Shown one piece after another: positions 1,355-11,565 of a DNA stretch of 41,806 nt. Where the stretch lies: IMG/VR virus record IMGVR_UViG_2711768061_000003, positions 1 through 41,806 of that record; one strand, written 5' to 3'. The notes beneath the pieces are model-generated. The model searched no databases, had not been told where the DNA came from, and saw only the letters and a program-made list of their open reading frames with translations. The stretch comes from a virus (lineage: Duplodnaviria; Heunggongvirae; Uroviricota; Caudoviricetes). The first letter of the stretch is position 1. Each line of letters opens with the position of its first letter. The position numbers were made by a program, and so were the translations under genes.

Positions 1355-3142
1355 ATGGAACTGAAATACAGACCCGAAATTGATGGGTTGAGAACATTAG
1401 CTGTTTTACCTGTTATCTTTTTTCATGCAGGTGTTCAATGGATTCCTGGCGGCTTTCTTGGAGTAGATGTTTTTTTTGTTATTAGTGGTTTTTTAATTAC
1501 CAGCATTTTGCTGAAAGAATGCAGCAATAGAACATTTACATTCTCTGGGTTTTATGAGAGAAGGGTTCGTAGAATTGCGCCTGCATTAATTCTAATGACA
1601 TCAGTAATATTCATTATATCATTATTTATGATGGTTCCATATGACCTAAAGAATCTAGGCCAATCAGTTGTTGCAACAATTTTTTCAGCAAACAATATAT
1701 TATTGTACTTAACGTCAGGATATTGGTCTACAGCATCTGAATTTAAACCATTGTATCACACATGGAGTCTTGCTGTAGAAGAACAGTATTATCTTGTAGC
1801 CCCTGTAATAATATATATAATTTACTCAATAAATCATAATAAACTAATAAAGAATAGTTTTATGTTTTTACTGGTAATATCAATTGCCAGTTTTTTATAT
1901 GCAACAATTACAACAGTGCATAATATGGAGTTTTCATTTCTTATGCTCCCTTCAAGGGCGTGGGAGATTGCTCTTGGTGGGGTTGCCGCTATTGCGCACT
2001 ATAAAATAAAAATAAAAAGTAACATCTTATCATACCTTGGTTTTTTATTGATAATATCAAGTTACTTCCTTGTGAATGGTAAAAAATCACACCCTGGATT
2101 TGAAACATTATTTCCAGTTCTTGGTGCATGTTTGTTTTTAATGCATTCAAATGCATCTAAAGGAATTGGAAAGATCATGTCAATAAAACCAATTGTGTTA
2201 TGTGGCATGATAAGTTATTCGCTATACCTTTGGCATCAACCTGTTTTTGCATTTATAAGATTAAACTCAAAATTTGAACCGTCAACAACATATTTTATCG
2301 CATCCATTCCTTTAATTTTTATTATATCGTGGATGTCTTATGTTTTTGTAGAAAAACCATTCAGAAACAAGAGAAAAACATCTACAAAAAAAATCTTATC
2401 ATATACATTAGCATTTTCGTTGGTGTTATCAGCATCAGGAATTTTGATGCACAAAACATATGGATTGCAAAATGTCAGGCCTGATCTTGCATATGGAGGA
2501 AATCCACAGGAGTATGTGGATACCCCGAAGAAATTAAAGAATATTGAGTTCTCAGACAATGGAAAGAAAATATTAATCATGGGTAACTCATATGCGAGAG
2601 ATTTAATTAATGCAATATCTACAAAGATTAAAACAAATGATCTTAATATTGTATATTTTGAGGGTGGATGTGATTGGTCAATAGATAATAAAAATAAATT
2701 AGATTACTACTTGAATGACTCAGACATTATTTTATATTCGGAGAATTGGGGTGCAGGCGACTATAATAATAACGTTGAAAAGTTAAAACACTGTTACGAT
2801 TACATAAAGTCAAAAACAACTGCAAAAATGTACTTGATTGGCACAAAAAACTTCGGGTATAACAATAACTTTGCTGTTAACCTGTCTCTTAATGACAGAG
2901 TTTTAGCAAAAACATACCCGCTATCAAGATATATAGAGTTTAACAATAAGGCGAAAATGATTTTTGGCGATGACTACATAGATTTGTTTGACCTTATAAA
3001 AGACAACAATGGAATGGTTAGAGTTTTTGATGAGAATGGCAAATTTTTATCATATGATGCAAACCATCTAACGAAATATGGAGCAAGTTACATTGGAGAA
3101 GTCTTAGACAAAAAAACAGACTTACTTCAATCTTTGAAATAA
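1355..3142 (+). CDS. membrane O-acetyltransferase (acyltransferase-3 family N-terminal domain with SGNH-like C-terminal domain); likely O-antigen or polysaccharide modifying moron
   Basis: 595-aa ORF; N-terminal motifs typical of acyltransferase-3 (DGLRTLAVLPVIFFHAG, VDVFFVISGFLIT); multiple hydrophobic segments followed by a soluble C-terminal domain; markedly AT-rich versus neighbouring genes; sits in the int-tailspike moron slot. Confidence 0.8.
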   Translation: MELKYRPEIDGLRTLAVLPVIFFHAGVQWIPGGFLGVDVFFVISGFLITSILLKECSNRTFTFSGFYERRVRRIAPALILMTSVIFIISLFMMVPYDLKNLGQSVVATIFSANNILLYLTSGYWSTASEFKPLYHTWSLAVEEQYYLVAPVIIYIIYSINHNKLIKNSFMFLLVISIASFLYATITTVHNMEFSFLMLPSRAWEIALGGVAAIAHYKIKIKSNILSYLGFLLIISSYFLVNGKKSHPGFETLFPVLGACLFLMHSNASKGIGKIMSIKPIVLCGMISYSLYLWHQPVFAFIRLNSKFEPSTTYFIASIPLIFIISWMSYVFVEKPFRNKRKTSTKKILSYTLAFSLVLSASGILMHKTYGLQNVRPDLAYGGNPQEYVDTPKKLKNIEFSDNGKKILIMGNSYARDLINAISTKIKTNDLNIVYFEGGCDWSIDNKNKLDYYLNDSDIILYSENWGAGDYNNNVEKLKHCYDYIKSKTTAKMYLIGTKNFGYNNNFAVNLSLNDRVLAKTYPLSRYIEFNNKAKMIFGDDYIDLFDLIKDNNGMVRVFDENGKFLSYDANHLTKYGASYIGEVLDKKTDLLQSLK

Positions 3143-3233: not shown

Positions 3234-5408
3234 TTATTTCTGCATCCTTTTTATCTCTCTACGCATATATGCAGCCTCAAGACAAAGTATTTCTTCGTAG
3301 CGTACAGTGTAACCTGAGTGAGCCTCCTGTGCAGCCTGAAGCAGCACCTTAGTGCCGTCGTCTAAAGTATCATACACCGCCTCTGTCGCGGGGGTATCAT
3401 CATAGCAAAGGATGCCGTACTCGAAAGGGTCCACTCCGTGGGCCTCAAATGCCGCCTTGATGTCTTGCGCGATAACCCCAATATGTCTCCGGGCTTTACT
3501 ACCTTTTTCTGCCACGCTTGCCTTTAATTTATAAGCCACATACTGGACGTCCCCCCAGGCGTCGAGAACAGCATCAGGTATTTGTGACTCTTCTGTTTTT
3601 GAGTTTCTGTCTGACGTGACCTGAAAAGCTGTTTGTGTATACCCACCTGACCATGCATATGCTGACGTTCCACATGTTTGAGCGTTCTGCCGACCAGGCC
3701 TAACATAATCTACGCCCCAAACAAGAACCGATGAATAGCCTATTTTCCAGTATGCTATTTTTGATACGCTATCAACTACTTGCTGCTGCTCATACAGGCC
3801 GTTTTTTGTGCGATAGGTCGTTGTTTGATAGCTTCTTGGAAGAAATTGAAGCCCCTGCGTACTTAAGCTCCTTATTGAATTTATAATATCAGGATTGGCG
3901 CCGCCTTGTGTTCTTGCAATAGTCATTCCGTCTGAACAAGCTGGGTGACCATATTTAAGACGAAGATTTTTTATCTCTGTAAGAGACTCTGCCCGGTTTG
4001 TATCGTCTCCTGATTTAAGCAAGTACCAACCAGCCACTGAGCTGTTATGCTCAACTAGGTTTTTAAACACGAATTTAGGGTCTGTGAAGTTTTCTGCGTA
4101 TTGCGGAGGATTCATAAGAACCAGCCCTTTAAACCCTGAATCGGTACGAGAGTTGTTAATGTGCAGCCCATCTATAATGATGTGGTCTGACTGGGTATTT
4201 TCGGTGCCGTCGGTTTTAAGATAAATCAGATTTTGGCCTTTAAAGTATTCAAACCAGCCATCGTTAATCTTAAAGTTAAAGAACTGTTGCAGATAGAAAA
4301 ACGCCCCGCCAAATACCTCGTTTTTCTCAAACCATGGGTTGTTTATGGTGAAGTTAAACCCACCTATAATACGGAAGAACATTCTGGCGCGAGCATCAAG
4401 GAAGATTGGGCTTTCCATGAAGTTTAAATTAAACGCTGCAAAAGGGTTGTTGTCATCCACAGGGGTATCAACAATGTAACCGGAGTCGTTAACCGTTTTG
4501 AAAATTGGGTTATAGTGGTAAACAGCAATCCATGACGCTTTCCATACAGTATGAAAGCCTTGCCATACACAGTTATGAGTGGTAAATGTTGCCACCCAAT
4601 TACCAGCGGCGGCTTCCATGAAAACGTTGGCGCTATTTAAAACATTAGAGCCATCGAAAATAATATTTTTAAAAGTGCAATACTGGAACTGATAAGGACC
4701 ATCTTGCGTGAACATAGTATACCCGCCAGATGATTTAATAGTGGCTTTCCCGTTAGGGCAGATGATATTGAAAGACTTCCAAGCCTCTGTATGTAAAGGT
4801 TTACTTGTCACGTAGACAAATCCAGCAGGAATTAACAATCCAGCATTAGCATTAAGCACAGAAATAACTTTGTCATCCACCTCTGGATTAGCTAAGCCAC
4901 TTATTGCCCCTAAATCTTGTATGGATAGCAGGTCAGAATTTTTATCATGCTGAGTCCTTCTTATTGCATCAAAAAAAGGCTGTTTAACGCCAATTAACGC
5001 ATCACCTTTACTTTCATCATCTAAATATTTACCCGTTTGGGCAAGCTGATTAACGATGTCAATACTGAATTTGTCGGGGTCATATTTCAGTACATTATGG
5101 AAATAGAACTGCTGCGCACCATACGCATCATAAACAGCCATAGAATGGCCTTGTACAGTTACGAATTTGGCAATCTGTCCGTTATATACTGGGTAACCAG
5201 CAGCGTTAATGATGATTGGTTGCGAAACAGGAACGTGAGAACCGTCTTCGTTCTCCACATAAACCTGAATCTGGTTTTCAGGATTTACCGGGTCAGTGTC
5301 AATTTTACCGATATAAATTTTGCCATTGGCTACGGCTTTAAAAGAACGAGCCATAGTGAAGAGTTGCGAAGGCATCGATACGATCACATTGGCTGTAATG
5401 TCTGTCAT
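3234..5408 (-). CDS. tailspike protein: P22-gp9-like N-terminal head-binding domain, divergent central receptor-binding domain, C-terminal intramolecular chaperone (S74-like) domain
   Basis: 724-aa ORF; first ~110 aa ([11 protein letters not shown]...[21 protein letters not shown]...VLKYDPD) match the P22 tailspike N-terminus as recalled; C-terminus contains [26 protein letters not shown], resembling auto-cleaving chaperone domains of endosialidase/tail fibre proteins. Confidence 0.9.
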
Positions 5409-5508: not shown

Positions 5509-6432
5509 TCAGTAGTTATGTACTGAAGGAGGTAATTCTTTATTCTTAAGTCTCATCCATGCGGAAAGATTCGTTGGTCCTTCTGGCTCATTGATATCAA
5601 CATCTCGTGTGTGATTGATTAAAACGTCCCTCGCCATTCCGATAACATACGAGAACTCATGACCGTAGTCGTAGCATCTGCCGGAATAGTTCGATTGAAT
5701 TTGTTTTAATGCCGGATACAGTTCGCGGAATAATGCCTGTGAGCGGTTGGCATAATCCCATAACCATACAAGGCTGTTTGCTTCTTTTGCAGAAAGCTCG
5801 TTGGTTTTCTTCTCTTGTTTGCCAATGAACTCACCTTCAAGCGGAACGCGAGCAGCAAGTGACAGTGCTTCGGTAAACTGCTCCTCACTGATTTCTTTGT
5901 ACGAACATCCAAAATGGGATTTCAGTGACGACCACATGGTGATCATCGCCTTAGCCTGTTTTTCTTTTGGCAGAGACTGACCGCGACTCATGACGAGTTG
6001 TTTAATGGCTTCCTGCTGTTCAGTGGTGATTTTACCCGGCAACGCTTTTTTAGCTTTGCGTGGGTTAACTACATGGCCTTTAGTCCAGTACTCGTATAGC
6101 ACATCGTCACACTCTTCTTGATACTGGATTACATTGTCGCGGATTTCAGGGCGGACTTTGTTAGGGCTGATGGTTTGCAACCAGCCATTCAGTTTACGTA
6201 AAGCAAGGCAAATCATGGTCTGCACACCGCCAACTGAAGGTATTGCGATTTCCACAATACCTTTAGCAAATCTTTGTTTTAACTTTGTAAACTGTGAAGC
6301 CCAATCCATACCCATTCCCTCAACGATAGGTTTCATTGGGGTGTACGGCTCACCGTTGTGATTGACAACATAAAGCTCTGCGCCGTGGAATGGTACATTG
6401 ATAGTAGATACTGCTGTTGCTATACTTTTCAT
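5509..6432 (-). CDS. ant: antirepressor Ant (immI region)
   Basis: 307-aa ORF immediately downstream of arc on the same strand; size and position match P22 Ant; N-terminal antirepressor-like domain. Confidence 0.85.
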
Positions 6433-6500
6433 GTCGTTAATTCCTATGCGTGGTTTTACGATATCGAAGCCCTGACTGTTCCCGCAGTTGGGGCTTCAAC
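6420..6500 (+). ncRNA. putative sar-like antisense RNA covering the ant ribosome-binding site (approximate bounds)
   Basis: Inference from P22 immI biology; strong hairpin at ~6465-6497 in the arc-ant intergenic region on the strand opposite to ant. No promoter verified. Confidence 0.3.
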
Positions 6501-6501
6501 T

Positions 6502-6663
6502 TTACGCGCCAATGCGTCCTTCCTTCTTAAAACTTTCCATTACTCTCTGATAAATCTCAGAGTTAACAGACCGACCATTCTCTTCCGCCACCTTGCGTAC
6601 CAAATCCAATACTTCTTTAGGCCACCGCAAATTGAACTGCGGCATTTTGCTCATTCCTTTCAT
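6502..6663 (-). CDS. arc: Arc repressor (ribbon-helix-helix)
   Basis: 53-aa product MKGMSKMPQFNLRWPKEVLDLVRKVAEENGRSVNSEIYQRVMESFKKEGRIGA, near-identical to P22 Arc as recalled; the longer ORF from 6726 would overlap the Arc operator. Confidence 0.9.
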   Translation of the reverse strand: MKGMSKMPQFNLRWPKEVLDLVRKVAEENGRSVNSEIYQRVMESFKKEGRIGA

Positions 6664-6678
6664 ATTCACCTCACAATA

Positions 6679-6697
6679 TGGGTCCACGGTGGACCTA
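6679..6697. promoter_or_regulatory. Mnt operator (palindrome GGTCCACGGTGGACC core)
   Basis: Near-perfect palindrome in the arc-mnt divergent promoter region, matching the P22 Mnt operator as recalled. Confidence 0.7.
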
Positions 6698-6705
6698 TTG
6701 AGAAT

Positions 6706-6726
6706 ATAGTAGAGTGCTTCTATCAT
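6706..6726. promoter_or_regulatory. Arc operator (ATAGTAGAGTGCTTCTATCAT)
   Basis: 21-bp partially symmetric site in the arc-mnt intergenic region, matching the P22 Arc operator as recalled. Confidence 0.7.
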
Positions 6727-6753
6727 GTCAATACACTAACTTGGAGTGATGGC

Positions 6754-7008
6754 ATGGCTAGAGATGATCCGCACTTTAACTTCCGCATGCCTTTGGAAGT
6801 AAGAGAAAAATTAAAATACAGAGCAGAGTCAAATGGTAGATCAATGAACTCAGAATTGTTGCAAATCGTCCAAGATGCTCTATCGAGACCATCTCCTGTA
6901 AAAGGTTATCGCAATGAAGCTGAACGATTAGCCGAGATGCAGGCTGAACAGTTCAAGTCTGTGGTATTTGAGACACTTAAAAACATGTATGGCAAGGATG
7001 CAAAATGA
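6754..7008 (+). CDS. mnt: Mnt repressor
   Basis: 84-aa product MARDDPHFNFRMPLEVREKLKYRAESNGRSMNSELLQIVQDAL..., closely resembling P22 Mnt as recalled; it is the C-terminal part of the 6358-7008 track ORF, whose upstream portion is antisense to ant. Confidence 0.9.
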   Translation: MARDDPHFNFRMPLEVREKLKYRAESNGRSMNSELLQIVQDALSRPSPVKGYRNEAERLAEMQAEQFKSVVFETLKNMYGKDAK

Positions 7009-7586
7009 TCGATTACAACCCAGCAAAAAAAGAAATCATCGCAGCTAAAAAGTGCCTAGAGCAGATGAAATCATCTACAAACCATGATGATTTTGAAATG
7101 CACTGGCGAGAATGTCTTGGGCATATAGAAAAGTCTTTCAGTAAGTTGCTCTGTGCAACAAAGCCGGTTAGTGGAAAATTTAGCAGCCACTTCAACCAAA
7201 AGTTCATGCTTAGAAAAACAGACAAAACACTTGCTTACCTTCACCAAGCAAGAAATGCTGATCATCATTCCACTATGGAAATCTCAAAACTTGAACCTCC
7301 TTATACTACTCTTGGGGCATTTCCGGGAGCAAGAAGCCATTATATTAAAGAGTTAATCATTGATTCAACAGGGAAAATAGCAAAATACGAAGGCGACCCT
7401 ATGATAGTTGAGTTTCATCCAGCAACAACTATGCCTATAACCGTAAGAAACCAAGGCAAAGATTATCCACCTCCAACAGAACATCTTGGCGAAAAGCTTG
7501 TTGATATACATCCATCTGTTCTTGCCTATCTCGGTATACAATTTTATGAAAAATGGATAGATGAGTCGTGTGCAACGTTTAGATAG
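7005..7586 (+). CDS. hypothetical protein, translationally coupled to mnt (ATGA overlap)
   Basis: 193-aa ORF; its ATG overlaps the mnt stop codon; AT-rich; no hydrophobic segments; no motif recognised. Confidence 0.6.
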   Translation: MIDYNPAKKEIIAAKKCLEQMKSSTNHDDFEMHWRECLGHIEKSFSKLLCATKPVSGKFSSHFNQKFMLRKTDKTLAYLHQARNADHHSTMEISKLEPPYTTLGAFPGARSHYIKELIIDSTGKIAKYEGDPMIVEFHPATTMPITVRNQGKDYPPPTEHLGEKLVDIHPSVLAYLGIQFYEKWIDESCATFR

Positions 7587-7803
7587 TTATTTTTGATAAT
7601 TTCAAGTATTTCCTCTTGACTTTGATTTACCCAAACGTGATCACACTCATGAAACCAGATTATGCTTCCTGTTTCGCCTTGTGCAATATAGGTGATCATG
7701 TTTTCATTAACAATTATTACTGAGTTATCATGTGCGCAATTTAGTTTTATCAATTCGCATATCCTATTGTGACAAAGTAACTAGAAAAACTAAAGAGGTT
7801 GGT

Positions 7804-8298
7804 GTGTCTGATTCTATGAGTTACGCTGTGCTAGTTGCCGCAACTCTATTTCTGGGGATAGGGTTGCAGATTGCGTGGTTCTTTTTTTCTAGTTTTATTA
7901 AACGTAAAAGAATTGAATCAAGGATATCTGAGATTTCTATTGCTATAGGGAAAAATGCTGAAAATCCAGAGAATGAGGCCTACGCACTGAATTACCTTAA
8001 AGAAAAGTTTTCCCCTGAAAAATTTGAAAACAGAATTACTGATGCTCTTGGATTGGTAATATCAGTAATTCATATGCCACTAAGTTTGCTGATAACAGTG
8101 TGGTACTTCGCCATGATCGCCGGAAGAATATTTGGTTTCATGAATATAGAGCCTGTAGTTCTTTGGGTTCCAATGATACTGCAATTGTTGTTAAGCGTTG
8201 CTATCTTTATTTTTTCTGTTTTTATAAAAATTGTCTTCGGAAGATACCCCGGAGAAGCGAAGGGATTTAATAAAGAATTCATAAAAACTATAAAATAA
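7804..8298 (+). CDS. small inner-membrane protein, possible SieA-like superinfection exclusion protein
   Basis: ORF with 3-4 predicted hydrophobic helices ([54 protein letters not shown]); GTG at 7804 is preceded by AAGAGG with 5-nt spacing (alternative ATG at 7816); occupies the slot between mnt and the gp16-like gene where P22 carries sieA. Confidence 0.55.
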
Positions 8299-8320: not shown

Positions 8321-10162
8321 CTACTGCCGGGTAGCTTCGTTAACTAAGAGCGGGCGCACGGCAGTAGCCGCCTGATTTAGCGCTCTTTCATAAGCTGGCG
8401 TTCCAGCTTTAGTGTTTGCCAAACGTAAGAGCGCATTCCTTGCTGCTTTGGATTCATACAAGCGCATCATTGCACCGAAACCAGCCTCAAGCCCCATTGA
8501 TACGCCAAGGGTCGCAGTTGCGCCAATCGTCCTTATCCTGTTGGCTTGCGATTGCCCCGTCTGAGTTACTACATTTGCGGTGTCTGACCTTGCTGTTTGC
8601 TGTAGAACTTCATGAAGAGCATCAAGCTCTTTCATGTGCTTTCCAGAAAAAATAGTGTTGTAAATTTCACCGCCTGACTGAGATTTCAGCTTATTAACTT
8701 CAGTGATGAACTTGGCTGGAGAGTCCCCGGCCTTTTCCGCTATTTTGCTGACGTAAGCTGCACGCATAGCATCTTTCCCCTTATCATCCAGTGCGCTCCA
8801 GATTCGTTTCACGTCAGATGGTTTTCTGCTTAATACAACGGTATTTATAAGTTCAGGACTGGCTTCACTGCTTGCCTTGTTGAGCTTGTTGGCAATGTTT
8901 TTATTAAGCACCTTATTATAAACGTTTGCATAATCGGAATTTGCTTTAAGGTATTTTGCTGCGTCTGATGCACCGAGGTTTTTAGCAACTGCGTTACGAA
9001 GGTCTTTTGACATTGCATTCTCTACCATATTGGTAGCTGCTTTTGCCTGGTTGGGGAAGACCATAGCATCTCCCTGAACATTAGATCTAAATGCTGTTCT
9101 GTGCTGACGCAAGAGATCAAACGTAACATCCAAATCAGTTGCAGGGTTTGCTAATTCTTCACGTAGGTTACGCAAGGATGTAAGCAGGCTTTGATTGGCA
9201 GACGTCCCAAGCCGTTCCTGTCTTGCGATCGCTGTATTCAGAGCATTCATGGTATTTGTGGTATCAACTGCGGCATTACCCATTTTATTGGTGACGTCAT
9301 TGATAACAGCGCCAGCGGCATCCTTCCGCCCCCTTAACGTGGTGGTCAGAGATTTCACCACATCATCAGGGTTATACTCACCAAAACGGTCAAAATAATT
9401 GCTTACCAGTTTACTACGCGTTGCATATTGCTCCGCTCGCTTTGAGCCTGTCCCGAGCAAAGCACCCTCGGCATCCTGAGTAAGGCCACGAGTGAAAGCA
9501 TTTTTCGGCGGGATAACATCAGATGTCATTGGTGTCACGCCCATCGATTCTGATGTGGCAATTTTCTTCGCCACTTCTGGCGCAATATCACCTTTTATAG
9601 CCGTTATTCCACGCCCTATTCCCTTTGCTGCTGCGGAAAGAACACCCTGAGCGGCAAGGTTAACTCCGGCATTTTTAGCTGCATTTTGTGCGAAATCGCC
9701 TTTCTGATTTGCGGCCTCTGCCAGTGATCCAATAGCCATGCTTCCTGCCGTTCCAACTCCTGGAACTAAATACCCACCAATTGTTTCACCGGCTTGCGCG
9801 TAGGGGTCTGTCGGTCTGTCTACTGGACGATAAACATCATCCAAAACCTTGGGTCCACCAAGCCCCTGGCTGATTGCATTAATCAGACTTGCGCCGCCCT
9901 GTAATACGTCAAATGGTATGTTTACCAGACCACGACCAGCCTGTTCTGCAATTTGCCCTGCACTTTGACCACCAGTGAGCCAATCGCCAGCTTGTTGCAT
10001 CAATGATGGTTCTTCCCGTGTTGGTGCATTATTGGCCTGATTAACTGTTTGTTGCTGAACAGCCTGACCAGCAAAATACTCGTCAATGGCGGTGCCAATA
10101 TCTTCGGTGCTCGTACCATCAGGAAAGGTAAATGTCTTACCGTTTGCAGTTACTTTCATCAT
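8321..10162 (-). CDS. ejection (E) protein, P22 gp16-like
   Basis: 613-aa ORF; size and position in the gp7-gp20-gp16 series of P22-like phages. Confidence 0.8.
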
Positions 10163-11565
10163 TCCACCGTAAATTGAATGCCTGATTTTGAGGTATATGA
10201 TCCAACCTGATTCCGTGGTTCTCCTGAAGGTGTCGAATCTTGTGCTGGCGCTGCGTCAGTATTCATTGACATATACCGCTTGACGGCACTCCCCAATGAT
10301 TCACCTTTTTTAACATCCAACCCCAATATCTGACCGCCATTACGCGATTGTCCAGGGTTGCCATTCGCGCTCATCCACTCGGCTTTAAACTCATTAAACT
10401 GCGCGTTTCGTCGCTCAAGGTTTGCCATAGCATCAAGCCATCTTGCGACCGTCTCAGGGTTATCCATGTCAGTTGGTGCACCCTGACGAACGATCTCAAC
10501 GTCTTTATCCGTTGCGGGGCCGGGAGGTAGGAATTTAAGAACCTGACTGTTAACAAGGGCATTTTGGCGAATGCGCAAATCACGCAATGTCGTATCGCTT
10601 CCGGTAAGTTTTGCGAACATGTTCTGTGCGTTACCGAACAAACCTGTCGTTGGTTTTTCTGCTCTGAACTGTTGAGCAAGCGCACTCATAGAATTGGCTG
10701 AGTTTGATGATGCTGTGGCATTGTTTACAGCCGTCTCGATGCCTTTTTCCATGTTTACTGACAGCTTAGGTGCTTCGCTAATCAACTGCTGAGCCTTTTC
10801 CTGCGCTTGCTGCATCTTAAACCCGAACTCTTGCTGATCCAGAGCCAAGCGTTGTGCTGCGATATTGTGCCCAGTCATTGCTGACTGATAGGAAAGGTTT
10901 TGCCCTCTCGCCTGAAGCGCCTCGCCAGCCTGATTGCTGCGGATTGTCTCTGCAAGTTTTCCGCGGTCAATCTCACGACCAGCCATCTTGTCCTGAACAT
11001 TGAAGTAGTCAATCGGACCGAGAGCAGCCATCCCAAGGTGATCAACAAACTCACCAAATCCTGAAGGATTCTGCTGATACATCTGAGCAACGCTGTTAGG
11101 GTCAACACCGACGCGAGTCAGTTCCTTGGCGTTGTTTTGCAGCCATGATTGCATTGCTTCTGGAGACGATGACGCAAGGCGTGCGCCAGCCGCTAAGGTG
11201 CCGATAGAATTACGCTGCTCTTCATCAATGAATCCCATGCCTTTACGAACGGATTCAATCTGGTCTGGATATTGAGTAGCCAACTGACGCAAAGCACCGC
11301 GATCACCAGACGCATAAGCATTAGCGTATGCCTGCTGAAATTCTTTCTGCCGCTGAGCCTGCTTTTCCTGCTGAAACACCCCTGCAATACCTGAAAGACC
11401 TTGCAAAGCAGTCAGCCCAACATTGTTAGCGCCTGAACGCTCAATATCATTGTTCTGCCTGATAAGCTGAAGCGTATTGCCGATGTCATTTACGCTCGGA
11501 GCGTTTGAGTTGACGCCGCCGATACCAGCTAACAATCCGCCATTTGATCCTTGCCAAGTAGCCAT
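10159..11565 (-). CDS. ejection protein, P22 gp20-like
   Basis: 468-aa ORF overlapping the downstream gene by 4 nt; synteny with P22 gene 20 (471 aa). Confidence 0.8.

What the first reader, a model, noticed from the sequence alone, without database searches (positions are those of the whole stretch)
7005..8298. Lysogen-expressed two-gene cassette translationally coupled to mnt, in the sieA slot
The 193-aa ORF at 7005 begins with an ATG that overlaps the mnt stop codon (ATGA), so it should be co-translated with the maintenance repressor in the lysogen. It is followed by a ~160-aa protein with 3-4 hydrophobic helices. Both are clearly more AT-rich than the flanking immI and ejection-protein genes, which suggests horizontal acquisition. 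The pair sits where P22 carries sieA, a slot known for exclusion functions. The soluble protein has no motif I can recognise, so this could be an uncharacterised two-component exclusion or abortive-infection module rather than a plain sieA homologue.
Basis: partly seen in the sequence, partly recalled or inferred. Interest (0 to 1): 0.75.

Follow-up and report, generated by a model that had tools for sequence, protein, structure and literature searches.

The report
Mnt-coupled HEPN-like gene beside ordinary sieA
Next to the immunity repressor gene mnt, this E. coli P22-like phage carries two unrelated prophage-expressed genes: the already known injection blocker SieA, and an uncharacterised 193-residue protein that looks like a new HEPN-type RNase and may be a stand-alone anti-phage defence.

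Summary
The sequence features are real. A 193-aa ORF (7005-7586) starts at an ATG that overlaps the mnt stop codon (ATGA). A membrane protein follows, and both genes are AT-rich compared with their flanks.

The "two-component module" reading does not hold.
- The membrane protein is ordinary type A SieA: 153/164 residues identical to P22 SieA, with the FxRYPxEAxxFNK motif intact. Published work shows SieA excludes P22-like phages on its own.
- ORF193 and sieA assort independently. E. coli prophages carry this sieA behind orf59a-hkcC or behind a ClpP-like gene plus a PanA pair. ORF193 also occurs in front of a different gene, or in phages with no sieA.
- The conserved unit is mnt-ORF193. The ATGA overlap is kept at 60-62% protein identity in two other elements.

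ORF193 belongs to an undescribed family of about 2,264 clusters at 50% identity, with no Pfam, NCBIfam or PADLOC match. The AlphaFold model is confident (pLDDT 94). It shows a four-helix bundle with an invariant R-N-x3-H at the end of helix 3, followed by a beta-rich insert and a second conserved motif, PPxEHxG. These are HEPN RNase hallmarks.

Best reading: a Pmnt-expressed, HEPN-like solo defence gene (analogue: Gifsy-1 HepS) sitting next to sieA in the variable "ant moron". RNase activity and any defence phenotype are inferred, not shown.

The parts
6698..6726 (+). Pmnt-like promoter (TTGAGA-17-TATCAT), collinear with the annotated P22 mnt promoter
   Evidence: Promoter scan. It has the same offset to mnt as the Pmnt annotated in P22 BK000583. 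The region is about 90% identical to P22.
6754..7008 (+). mnt, the maintenance repressor (84 aa). Its 3' end from about 6935 is diverged from P22.
   Evidence: Pfam Arc E 2.8e-27 and Repressor_Mnt E 3.4e-11. BLASTN homology to P22 stops at 6935.
7005..7586 (+). ORF193: soluble 193-aa protein whose start overlaps the mnt stop (ATGA). Predicted four-helix bundle with a beta-rich insert; candidate new HEPN-like family.
7251..7268 (+). Codons for R83-N-A-D-H-H88, the invariant Rx4H motif at the end of helix 3
   Evidence: R83 and H88 are invariant in 77/77 diverse homologues. Residue 84 is N in 66, H in 8 and D in 2. In the AF2 models helix 3 ends at residue 83-88.
7470..7490 (+). Codons for P156-P-T-E-H-L-G162, a second conserved motif between the beta insert and the last helix
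   Evidence: P157 77/77, H160 74/77, G162 73/77.
7587..7803 (.). AT-rich 217-nt spacer between ORF193 and sieA. It has no recognisable + strand terminator and no homologue of the P22 PsieA.
   Evidence: Terminator and promoter scan. RNA fold z-score -0.3. P22 homology resumes only at 7786.
7544..7753 (-). 69-aa minus-strand ORF (TTG start, contains HECDH). Probably not a conserved gene.
   Evidence: Only near-identical copies from the same locus among 5.8 billion proteins. No family hit. Not annotated by PGAP.
7804..8298 (+). sieA, type A superinfection exclusion protein (164 aa from GTG 7804, as in P22)
   Evidence: 153/164 residues identical to P22 SieA. phrog_7745 E 5e-106. Motif [13 protein letters not shown] present. 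Hydrophobic spans found. Sits between gene 16 and the immI genes, as in P22.

Best explanation
The interval 7005-8298 is the cargo part of the 'ant moron' (immI region) of a CUS-3/E212-like P22-like phage of E. coli. It holds two independent genes on the strand opposite to the late operon.

1. sieA (7804-8298) is the known type A inner-membrane protein. It blocks DNA injection by other P22-like phages by interfering with their ejection proteins, and it needs no partner.

2. ORF193 (7005-7586) has replaced the orf59a-hkcC segment of P22. It is transcribed from Pmnt and translated by coupling to mnt through the ATGA overlap.

I propose that ORF193 is a member of a new HEPN-like family. Its core is a four-helix bundle with the catalytic R83-N-x3-H88 at the end of helix 3. 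A roughly 60-residue beta-rich insert and a PPxEHxG loop lie between the motif and helix 4.

I propose that it acts as a single-protein, normally latent RNase. On this view a signal from an infecting phage activates it, possibly through the beta insert, and it then cuts RNA and aborts the infection, in the manner of Gifsy-1 HepS.

Shown here: gene structures, the identity of SieA, conservation of the coupling, independent assortment of the two genes, the family and its invariant residues, and the predicted fold.

Inferred: expression in the lysogen, HEPN homology, RNase activity, and a defence role.
For: SieA
- 153/164 residues identical to P22 SieA, with the motif intact; phrog_7745 E 5e-106.
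- Same position as in P22.
- Sufficient for exclusion on its own, and functional in E. coli (PMC10883804).

Independence of the two genes
- The same sieA allele occurs behind orf59a-hkcC, and behind a ClpP-like gene plus a PanA pair.
- Nearly identical ORF193 (one substitution) occurs in front of a 122-aa unrelated protein.
- ORF193 homologues occur in a Citrobacter lambdoid prophage, a siphophage tail region and a prophage end, none with sieA.

Coupling to mnt
- The ATGA overlap is conserved in L013 and L014 at 60-62% identity, behind diverged Mnt-like RHH genes.
- The Pmnt region is conserved with P22.

HEPN-like features
- R83 and H88 are invariant in 77 diverse homologues. The residue after R is N, H or D in 76/77, which is the published HEPN rule.
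- The motif sits at the end of helix 3, as described for HEPN (PMC3710099; models).
- The family consensus has E49-x3-K53 in helix 2.
- Csx1 is a precedent for a beta insert right after the motif.

Context
- Family members sit in prophage moron positions, near transposases and integrases, and in a defence island: PD-Lambda-3_B/Ymh HEPN, PD-Lambda-5_A-like, PhD/PIN and DpdA.
- HepS shows that a solo prophage HEPN protein can act as an abortive-infection system (PMC13043305).
Against: - No sequence or profile similarity to any HEPN family, or to anything in Pfam, NCBIfam, PADLOC or PDB sequences.
- Foldseek finds nothing at E <= 0.001 in PDB or BFVD.
- The helix-2 acidic residue is L49 in this protein's subfamily.
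- Other invariant residues (D73, Y78, D86, P157, H160) are not HEPN features and could mark a different active site.
- Superposition of R83/H88 on a real HEPN active site could not be done.
- There are no expression or phenotype data.
- No terminator or sieA promoter was recognised in the gap, so how sieA is transcribed here is unresolved.
Confidence: 0.55

Rival explanations
1. One reading: ORF193 and the membrane protein form one two-component exclusion or abortive-infection module, a soluble sensor or effector plus a membrane partner.
For: - Both genes are on the same strand, both are AT-rich, and both lie downstream of Pmnt.
- No terminator was recognised between them, and the P22 PsieA is not conserved, so they may be co-transcribed here.
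- They are neighbours in about 17 of 5,426 E. coli genomes, judged by comparing the record lists.
Against: - The membrane protein is P22 SieA at 93% identity, which works alone.
- P22 and many E. coli prophages have this sieA without ORF193.
- ORF193 occurs with a different downstream gene, and in non-P22-like elements without any sieA.
- The recombination breakpoints against P22 (6935 and 7786) bracket ORF193 alone.
Confidence: 0.05
2. Mnt-like RHH protein and ORF193 form a toxin-antitoxin-like pair. ORF193 is a toxin whose synthesis or activity is held in check by the upstream RHH repressor, stabilising the prophage or triggering when Mnt falls.
For: - An RHH gene followed by a 4-nt overlapping downstream gene is the classic type II TA layout.
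- The layout is conserved in three diverged elements.
- The 3' end of mnt appears to have travelled with ORF193: the breakpoint at 6935 lies inside mnt, and the C-termini are similar (LKNMYGKDAK against LKSIYNRERK).
Against: - Mnt here keeps the P22 Mnt N-terminal domain and operator region, and has its own known job.
- Most family members are solitary, with no RHH gene upstream.
- In the same position other prophages couple a ClpP-like gene to mnt, so coupling to mnt looks like a general way to express cargo.
Confidence: 0.1
3. ORF193 is an enzyme or binding protein of a fold family unrelated to HEPN. It might use the D73/D86/H88/H160 cluster as a metal or phosphoester site. Its role would be other than RNA cleavage, for example lysogenic conversion, anti-defence, or modulation of the immI circuit.
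For: - No HEPN profile hit of any kind.
- No significant Foldseek match for the whole chain.
- Several invariant residues lie outside the HEPN signature.
- The three closest homologues with an upstream RHH gene all sit in immI-type modules.
Against: - The invariant R-[NHD]-x3-H at the end of helix 3 of an up-down four-helix bundle is the HEPN signature in both sequence and position.
- The family is widespread outside immI and outside phages.
Confidence: 0.25
4. ORF193 is not a functional gene, only a chance ORF in AT-rich filler DNA.
For: No annotation beyond 'hypothetical protein'. No tblastn hit in 50,697 phage records.
Against: - 2,264 homologous clusters, 879 of them at E <= 1e-30.
- Invariant residues are kept across sequences of 24-62% identity.
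- AF2 pLDDT is 94.4, with all five models at 93 or above.
- The coupled start is conserved.
Confidence: 0.01

Closest known systems
P22 SieA (type A superinfection exclusion protein; Leavitt et al. 2024, PMC10883804)
   Same: The gene at 7804-8298 is an orthologue. It shares 153/164 identical residues, the same length, the same GTG start context, the FxRYPxEAxxFNK motif, the hydrophobic spans, and the position next to gene 16 in a P22-like phage.
   Different: - Eleven conservative substitutions.
- The upstream 700-850 bp, including the putative PsieA, orf59a, hkcC and the mnt terminator, has been replaced, so its transcription signals here are unknown.
- The host is E. coli rather than Salmonella.
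HepS of prophage Gifsy-1 (solo HEPN abortive-infection protein; Sargen et al. 2026, PMC13043305)
   Different: - No detectable sequence similarity to any chain in the PDB sequence copy.
- ORF193 has a beta-rich insert and a second PPxEHxG motif.
[quoted passage not shown]
- Activity, trigger and phenotype are untested.
HEPN superfamily (Anantharaman et al. 2013, PMC3710099), e.g. HepT/DUF86 toxins and Csx1
   Same: Up-down four-helix bundle. Invariant R-[N/H/D]-x3-H at the end of helix 3. E-x3-K in helix 2 in the family consensus. Csx1 also has a beta insert immediately after the motif. Members occur in prophages, mobile regions and a defence island.
   Different: - Not matched by any Pfam, PADLOC or NCBIfam HEPN model.
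[quoted passage not shown]
- There are extra invariant residues (D73, Y78, D86, P157, H160).
- There is no MNT nucleotidyltransferase or other known HEPN partner.
The 'ant moron' of P22-like phages (Villafane et al. 2008, PMC2629481)
   Same: It is the same hypervariable, prophage-expressed insertion between gene 16 and the tailspike gene, holding immI (ant, arc, mnt), sieA and alternative unknown genes.
   Different: - ORF193 is a cargo allele absent from the 50,697 phage records searched.
- The sub-slot directly coupled to the mnt stop codon (ORF193 here, a ClpP-like gene in Res13) was not found described in the papers I read.

Membership tests
SieA type A (P22) | Full-length sequence homology to P22 SieA | tested here: met
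   153/164 residues identical with no gaps. phrog_7745 'superinfection exclusion SieA-like' E 5.1e-106, covering profile positions 5-164 of 164.
SieA type A (P22) | Conserved cytoplasmic motif FxRYPxEAxxFNK at residues 145-157 | tested here: met
   [13 protein letters not shown] lies at 145-157 in the 164-aa numbering. The motif is defined in PMC10883804.
SieA type A (P22) | Located in a P22-like (pro)phage between the gene 16 and gene 9 homologues | tested here: met
   Gene 16 homologue at 8321-10162 (-), tailspike at 3234-5408 (-) with a Head_binding domain. Collinear with P22.
SieA type A (P22) | Inner-membrane protein with several transmembrane helices | tested here: met
   Kyte-Doolittle 19-residue windows of 1.6 or more at residues 1-25, 74-107 and 110-144. 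Actual localisation is not testable here.
SieA type A (P22) | Blocks DNA injection by P22-like phages | not testable with these tools
   Needs plating and injection assays.
HEPN superfamily | Rx4-6H motif with a polar N/D/H right after R | tested here: met
   R83 and H88 are present in 77/77 homologues. Residue 84 is N in 66, H in 8 and D in 2. The rule is quoted from PMC3710099.
HEPN superfamily | [quoted passage not shown] | tested here: met
   AF2 models put helix 3 at 60/61-83/88, then the beta insert at 94-154, then helix 4 at 170-191 (pLDDT 88.8 and 94.4). This rests on predicted models only.
HEPN superfamily | Structural similarity to solved HEPN domains | tested here: inconclusive
   [not shown]
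HEPN superfamily | Acidic residue in helix 2, typically E-x3-[KR] | tested here: not met
   In the family, position 49 is E in 57/77 and position 53 is K or R in 37/77. This protein and its closest relatives have L49. The feature is described as 'when present', so it is not obligatory.
HEPN superfamily | Profile-level sequence similarity to a recognised HEPN family | tested here: not met
   No hit in Pfam for 27 family members, at cut-offs from E <= 0.1 to E <= 10. None in PADLOC, NCBIfam or PDB sequences. hhalign against the neighbouring Ymh HEPN protein gave probability 2.7%. HHpred against profile libraries could not be run.
HEPN superfamily | Metal-independent RNase activity from a dimeric composite site | not testable with these tools
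   Needs biochemistry, or at least a multimer model.
Type II toxin-antitoxin pair (RHH antitoxin + toxin) | Obligate co-occurrence of the two genes | tested here: not met
   An RHH gene lies upstream only in the window, L013 and L014. The family member is solitary in L004-7, L008, L010, L012, L016, L017-19, L020 and L022.
   sieA occurs without ORF193. ORF193 occurs without sieA.

The most novel reading that the evidence does not exclude
The ORF193 family (about 2,264 clusters at 50% identity, unannotated everywhere) is a new branch of HEPN-like RNases. In this reading a beta-rich domain inserted right after the catalytic Rx4H, plus a PPxEHxG loop, acts as a built-in sensor of a phage component.

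In P22-like and some lambdoid prophages the gene would be hard-wired to the immI repressor Mnt by translational coupling, so that its dose follows Mnt. It would then form a second, post-injection layer of defence behind SieA, against phages that SieA cannot stop.
Probability: 0.3. Interest if true: 0.7.

Novelty: new variant of a known kind. Interest (0 to 1): 0.45.

Why it matters
If ORF193 is an active HEPN-like RNase, it adds a widespread, completely unannotated family to the list of single-protein prophage defences. The family spans thousands of clusters in genomes and metagenomes. It would also provide a second example, after HepS, of a solo HEPN protein that must sense infection by itself, here with an obvious candidate sensor insert.

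It would also show that the site directly coupled to the mnt stop codon in the 'ant moron' is a plug-in site for defence-type cargo: ORF193, a ClpP-like protein, and nearby PanA pairs. That would make the site useful for mining new systems.

For sieA, nothing new follows. It is the known gene, and annotation pipelines should simply name it and use the P22 start codon.

Tried and rejected
- **Family libraries for ORF193 and relatives.** Pfam, PHROGs, PADLOC and NCBIfam gave only phrog_23516 (unknown function).
- **PDB sequence searches** with profiles A1 and A2: nothing meaningful.
- **Foldseek** against PDB and BFVD: no hit at E <= 0.001. The one borderline BFVD protein is unnamed. The afdb50 library was not available.
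- **hhalign** of the family against the neighbouring Ymh HEPN protein: no alignment of the HEPN part.
- **Fusion proteins** in the family, looked at for a functional clue: no recognisable extra domains.
- **HepS for direct comparison.** I looked for it in the LT2 Gifsy-1 record. No ORF there has an R100-H105 motif, and the 14028 allele is not in the collections.
- **The 69-aa minus-strand ORF (7544-7753)** as a possible third gene. There are no diverged homologues, and its similarity to P22 hkcC is limited to HEC.H (E 0.18). I rejected it as a supported gene.
- **Small convergent genes downstream of homologues** (81-93 aa in L004, L008, L010, L013), considered as a conserved partner. Their sequences are unrelated, so I rejected this.
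- **A terminator or structured RNA in the gap.** None was found.
- **tblastn and blastn of ORF193 against 50,697 phage records.** No match, so no sequenced free phage in that collection carries it.
- **Literature search for WP_000568382.** No paper mentions it.
Full report
**What is in the sequence**

The window is a complete P22-like temperate phage of E. coli. Its virion genes are about 95% identical to phages E212 and CUS-3. Around the finding, the gene order is:

| Coordinates | Strand | Gene |
|---|---|---|
| 1-1182 | + | integrase |
| 1355-3142 | + | AT3+SGNH acyltransferase |
| 3234-5408 | - | tailspike |
| 5509-6432 | - | ant |
| about 6502-6663 | - | arc |
| 6754-7008 | + | mnt |
| 7005-7586 | + | ORF193 |
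| 7587-7803 | . | 217-nt spacer |
| 7804-8298 | + | membrane-protein gene |
| 8321-10162 | - | ejection-protein gene 16 |
| 10159-11565 | - | ejection-protein gene 20 |

- The ATG of ORF193 overlaps the mnt stop codon as ATGA, and AAGGA lies 6 nt upstream.
- GC content is 0.387 for ORF193, 0.328 for the spacer and 0.352 for the membrane gene. The whole window is 0.464 and gene 16 is 0.476.
One correction: only ORF193 is coupled to mnt, and the second gene is 217 nt further on.

**The membrane protein is SieA itself**

- Against P22 (BK000583), the window is homologous at 6417-6935 and again from 7786 onwards.
- The second stretch contains the membrane-protein gene. From the P22-equivalent GTG start it encodes 164 residues, of which 153 are identical to P22 SieA, with no gaps.
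- It matches PHROG 7745, 'superinfection exclusion SieA-like', at E 5e-106 over the whole profile.
- It keeps the FxRYPxEAxxFNK motif that Leavitt et al. describe at residues 145-157, and it has 3-4 hydrophobic spans.
- Leavitt et al. (PMC10883804) showed three things. sieA with 85 bp of upstream DNA is sufficient to block DNA injection by P22-like phages. No other phage protein is needed. P22 SieA also works in E. coli.
- This gene is therefore already known and needs no partner.

**What was exchanged**

- The segment that differs from P22 is 6935-7786.
- In the same place P22 has the end of mnt, orf59a, the mnt terminator, the minus-strand gene hkcC (121 aa) and the putative sieA promoter (gene names from PMC2629481).
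- The window instead has a diverged mnt 3' end, ORF193 and an AT-rich spacer.
- ORF193 therefore replaces the orf59a-hkcC segment, not sieA.
- I found no + strand terminator and no convincing promoter in the spacer. Here sieA may be read through from Pmnt or may use an unrecognised promoter. This remains open.

**The two genes are not a unit**

- In 5,426 complete E. coli genomes, the ORF193 segment occurs in 21 and this sieA allele in 35.
- Strain MS20659 has mnt-orf59a-hkcC-sieA, as in P22.
- The Res13 strains have mnt, then a ClpP-like gene whose start overlaps the mnt stop (TAATG). After that come a minus-strand Panacea-domain (PanA) gene with a 139-aa neighbour, and then the same sieA.
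- More distant ORF193 homologues also lack sieA:
  - in a Citrobacter koseri lambdoid siphophage prophage that carries an ant-arc-mnt-ORF193 module next to its tail genes;
  - inside the tail gene cluster of another siphophage, on the opposite strand;
  - at the end of a prophage next to a tailspike gene;
  - in non-phage mobile contexts.
- The conserved pair is mnt-ORF193. The ATGA overlap (AAAATGAT) is retained in L013 and L014 at 60-62% protein identity, behind Mnt-like RHH proteins that are only distantly similar to the window's Mnt.
- This whole region is the 'ant moron' described for P22-like phages as a variable, prophage-expressed insertion (PMC2629481).

**What ORF193 is**

- *Annotation.* It has no Pfam, NCBIfam or PADLOC match. 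It falls in PHROG 23516, of unknown function. No sequenced phage in the 50,697-record collection encodes it.
- *Family size.* A single-sequence search found only 7 clusters. A profile found 178. A full HMMER scan of 1.84 billion representatives found 2,264 clusters at E <= 0.001 and 879 at E <= 1e-30. Nearly all are stand-alone proteins of 190-200 residues, without informative fusions.
- *Conserved residues.* In an alignment of 77 diverse members, R83, H88 and P157 are invariant. W34, L38, D73, L75, L76, Y78, A82, A85, D86, H160 and G162 are at least 90% conserved.
- *Predicted structure.* AlphaFold2 gives a confident model: pLDDT 88.8 with 7 sequences and 94.4 with 77, pTM 0.86, all five models at 93 or above. 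The model has:
  - helices at 5-23, 27-58 and 61-88 (kinked at residue 73);
  - eight short strands at 94-154;
  - a final helix at 170-191.

**Why I call it HEPN-like**

The features below match the published description of HEPN domains (PMC3710099):
- The invariant pair is R-x4-H.
- The residue after R is N in 66, H in 8 and D in 2 of 77 sequences. The paper's rule is 'mostly N, D or H'.
- The motif sits at the end of helix 3 of an up-down four-helix bundle. [quoted passage not shown]
- The family consensus has E49-x3-K53 in helix 2, the second HEPN feature. The window's own subfamily has L49 instead.
- A beta insertion immediately after the motif has a precedent in Csx1.

Evidence against:
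- There is no profile-level similarity to any HEPN family.
- Foldseek finds nothing significant for the whole chain.
- Residues D73, Y78, D86, P157 and H160 are not HEPN features.
- I could not superpose the active sites.

I put HEPN-type homology at roughly 55-60%.

**How it most likely works**

- *Shown.* ORF193 lies on the strand opposite to the late operon. It is downstream of a Pmnt region conserved with P22. Its start codon is coupled to mnt.
- *Inferred.* ORF193 is made in the lysogen together with Mnt.
  - By analogy with HepS of Gifsy-1, it would stay latent until a phage component activates it, and would then cleave RNA and abort the infection. HepS is a solo prophage HEPN protein that is constitutively made, non-toxic until triggered by tail-tip proteins, and then cuts tRNA anticodon loops (PMC13043305).
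  - The beta insert and the PPxEHxG loop are the obvious candidates for a sensor or regulatory element.
- *Supporting context.* Family members sit in moron positions of three different prophage types, next to transposases and integrases. In one case the gene lies in a defence island with a PD-Lambda-3_B/Ymh HEPN protein, a PD-Lambda-5_A-like protein, PhD/PIN and DpdA.
- *Relation to SieA.* SieA would then be a separate first layer that stops injection by P22-like phages.

**Rivals**

- A toxin-antitoxin relation between the Mnt-like RHH protein and ORF193 is suggested by the conserved overlap. It is weakened by two points: the many solitary family members, and a ClpP-like gene coupled to mnt in the same way in other prophages.
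- A non-HEPN enzyme or an immI accessory role cannot be excluded.
- A chance ORF is excluded by conservation.

**Verdict**

- sieA is already known.
- ORF193 is a new variant of a known kind: a candidate new HEPN-like family used as prophage cargo, with an unusual hard link to the mnt repressor gene.
- Activity and phenotype remain to be tested.

Noticed in passing
window 7544-7753 (- strand): A 69-aa ORF (TTG start, AGGA 8 nt upstream) lies antisense in the ORF193-sieA spacer and overlaps the ORF193 3' end by 43 nt. It contains an HExxH-like HECDH. Only near-identical copies from the same E. coli locus exist, and PGAP does not call it.
   Followed up: yes
L001 2099-2464 (- strand; P22 BK000583 between orf59a and sieA): The P22 gene hkcC (121 aa, phrog_1365, unknown function; unannotated in BK000583 but called in other records) carries an HExxH motif (AHECAHMAF). 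This may point to a small metallopeptidase-like protein in the slot that ORF193 replaces.
   Followed up: partly
L026 419-2126 (E. coli Res13-Lact-ER02-39 prophage): The same mnt-sieA slot holds a 178-aa ClpP-like protein (Pfam CLP_protease E 4e-12) whose ATG overlaps the mnt stop (TAATG). It also holds a minus-strand pair: a Panacea-domain (SocA/PanA antitoxin-like) protein and a 139-aa unknown, probably a PanA toxin-antitoxin system. The site coupled to mnt therefore takes alternative cargo.
   Followed up: partly
[not shown]
   Followed up: partly
L014 6580-8582 (Citrobacter koseri GCA_003184045.1): A lambda-like siphophage prophage (gpJ, gpL and Phage_tail_APC neighbours) lies next to host purB/hflD/mnmA/icd. 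At its end it carries a P22-type immI module (ant, a small arc-like gene, mnt-like RHH) with the coupled ORF193 homologue. This shows that the module moves between podophage and siphophage backbones.
   Followed up: partly
L020 1-12609 (metagenome contig ERZ1758453): A distant ORF193 family member (P0015) sits in a defence-island-like stretch. It contains a DEAD/ResIII helicase, a PD-Lambda-5_A-like protein, a Ymh/PD-Lambda-3_B HEPN protein directly upstream, a DUF2934 protein, PhD/PIN, an IS1 transposase and DpdA.
   Followed up: partly
window 7732-8298: RefSeq/PGAP records annotate this gene from GTG 7732 (188 aa), often as 'hypothetical protein'. The Shine-Dalgarno sequence (AGAGG at 7794-7798) and the P22 annotation support GTG 7804 (164 aa, SieA).
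   Followed up: yes
window 1355-3142 and 3234-5408: A 595-aa AT3+SGNH acyltransferase lies between the integrase and the tailspike, and is probably an O-antigen or capsule acetylation (lysogenic conversion) gene. The tailspike has a P22-type head-binding domain and a C-terminal Peptidase_S74 (endosialidase chaperone) domain.
   Followed up: no
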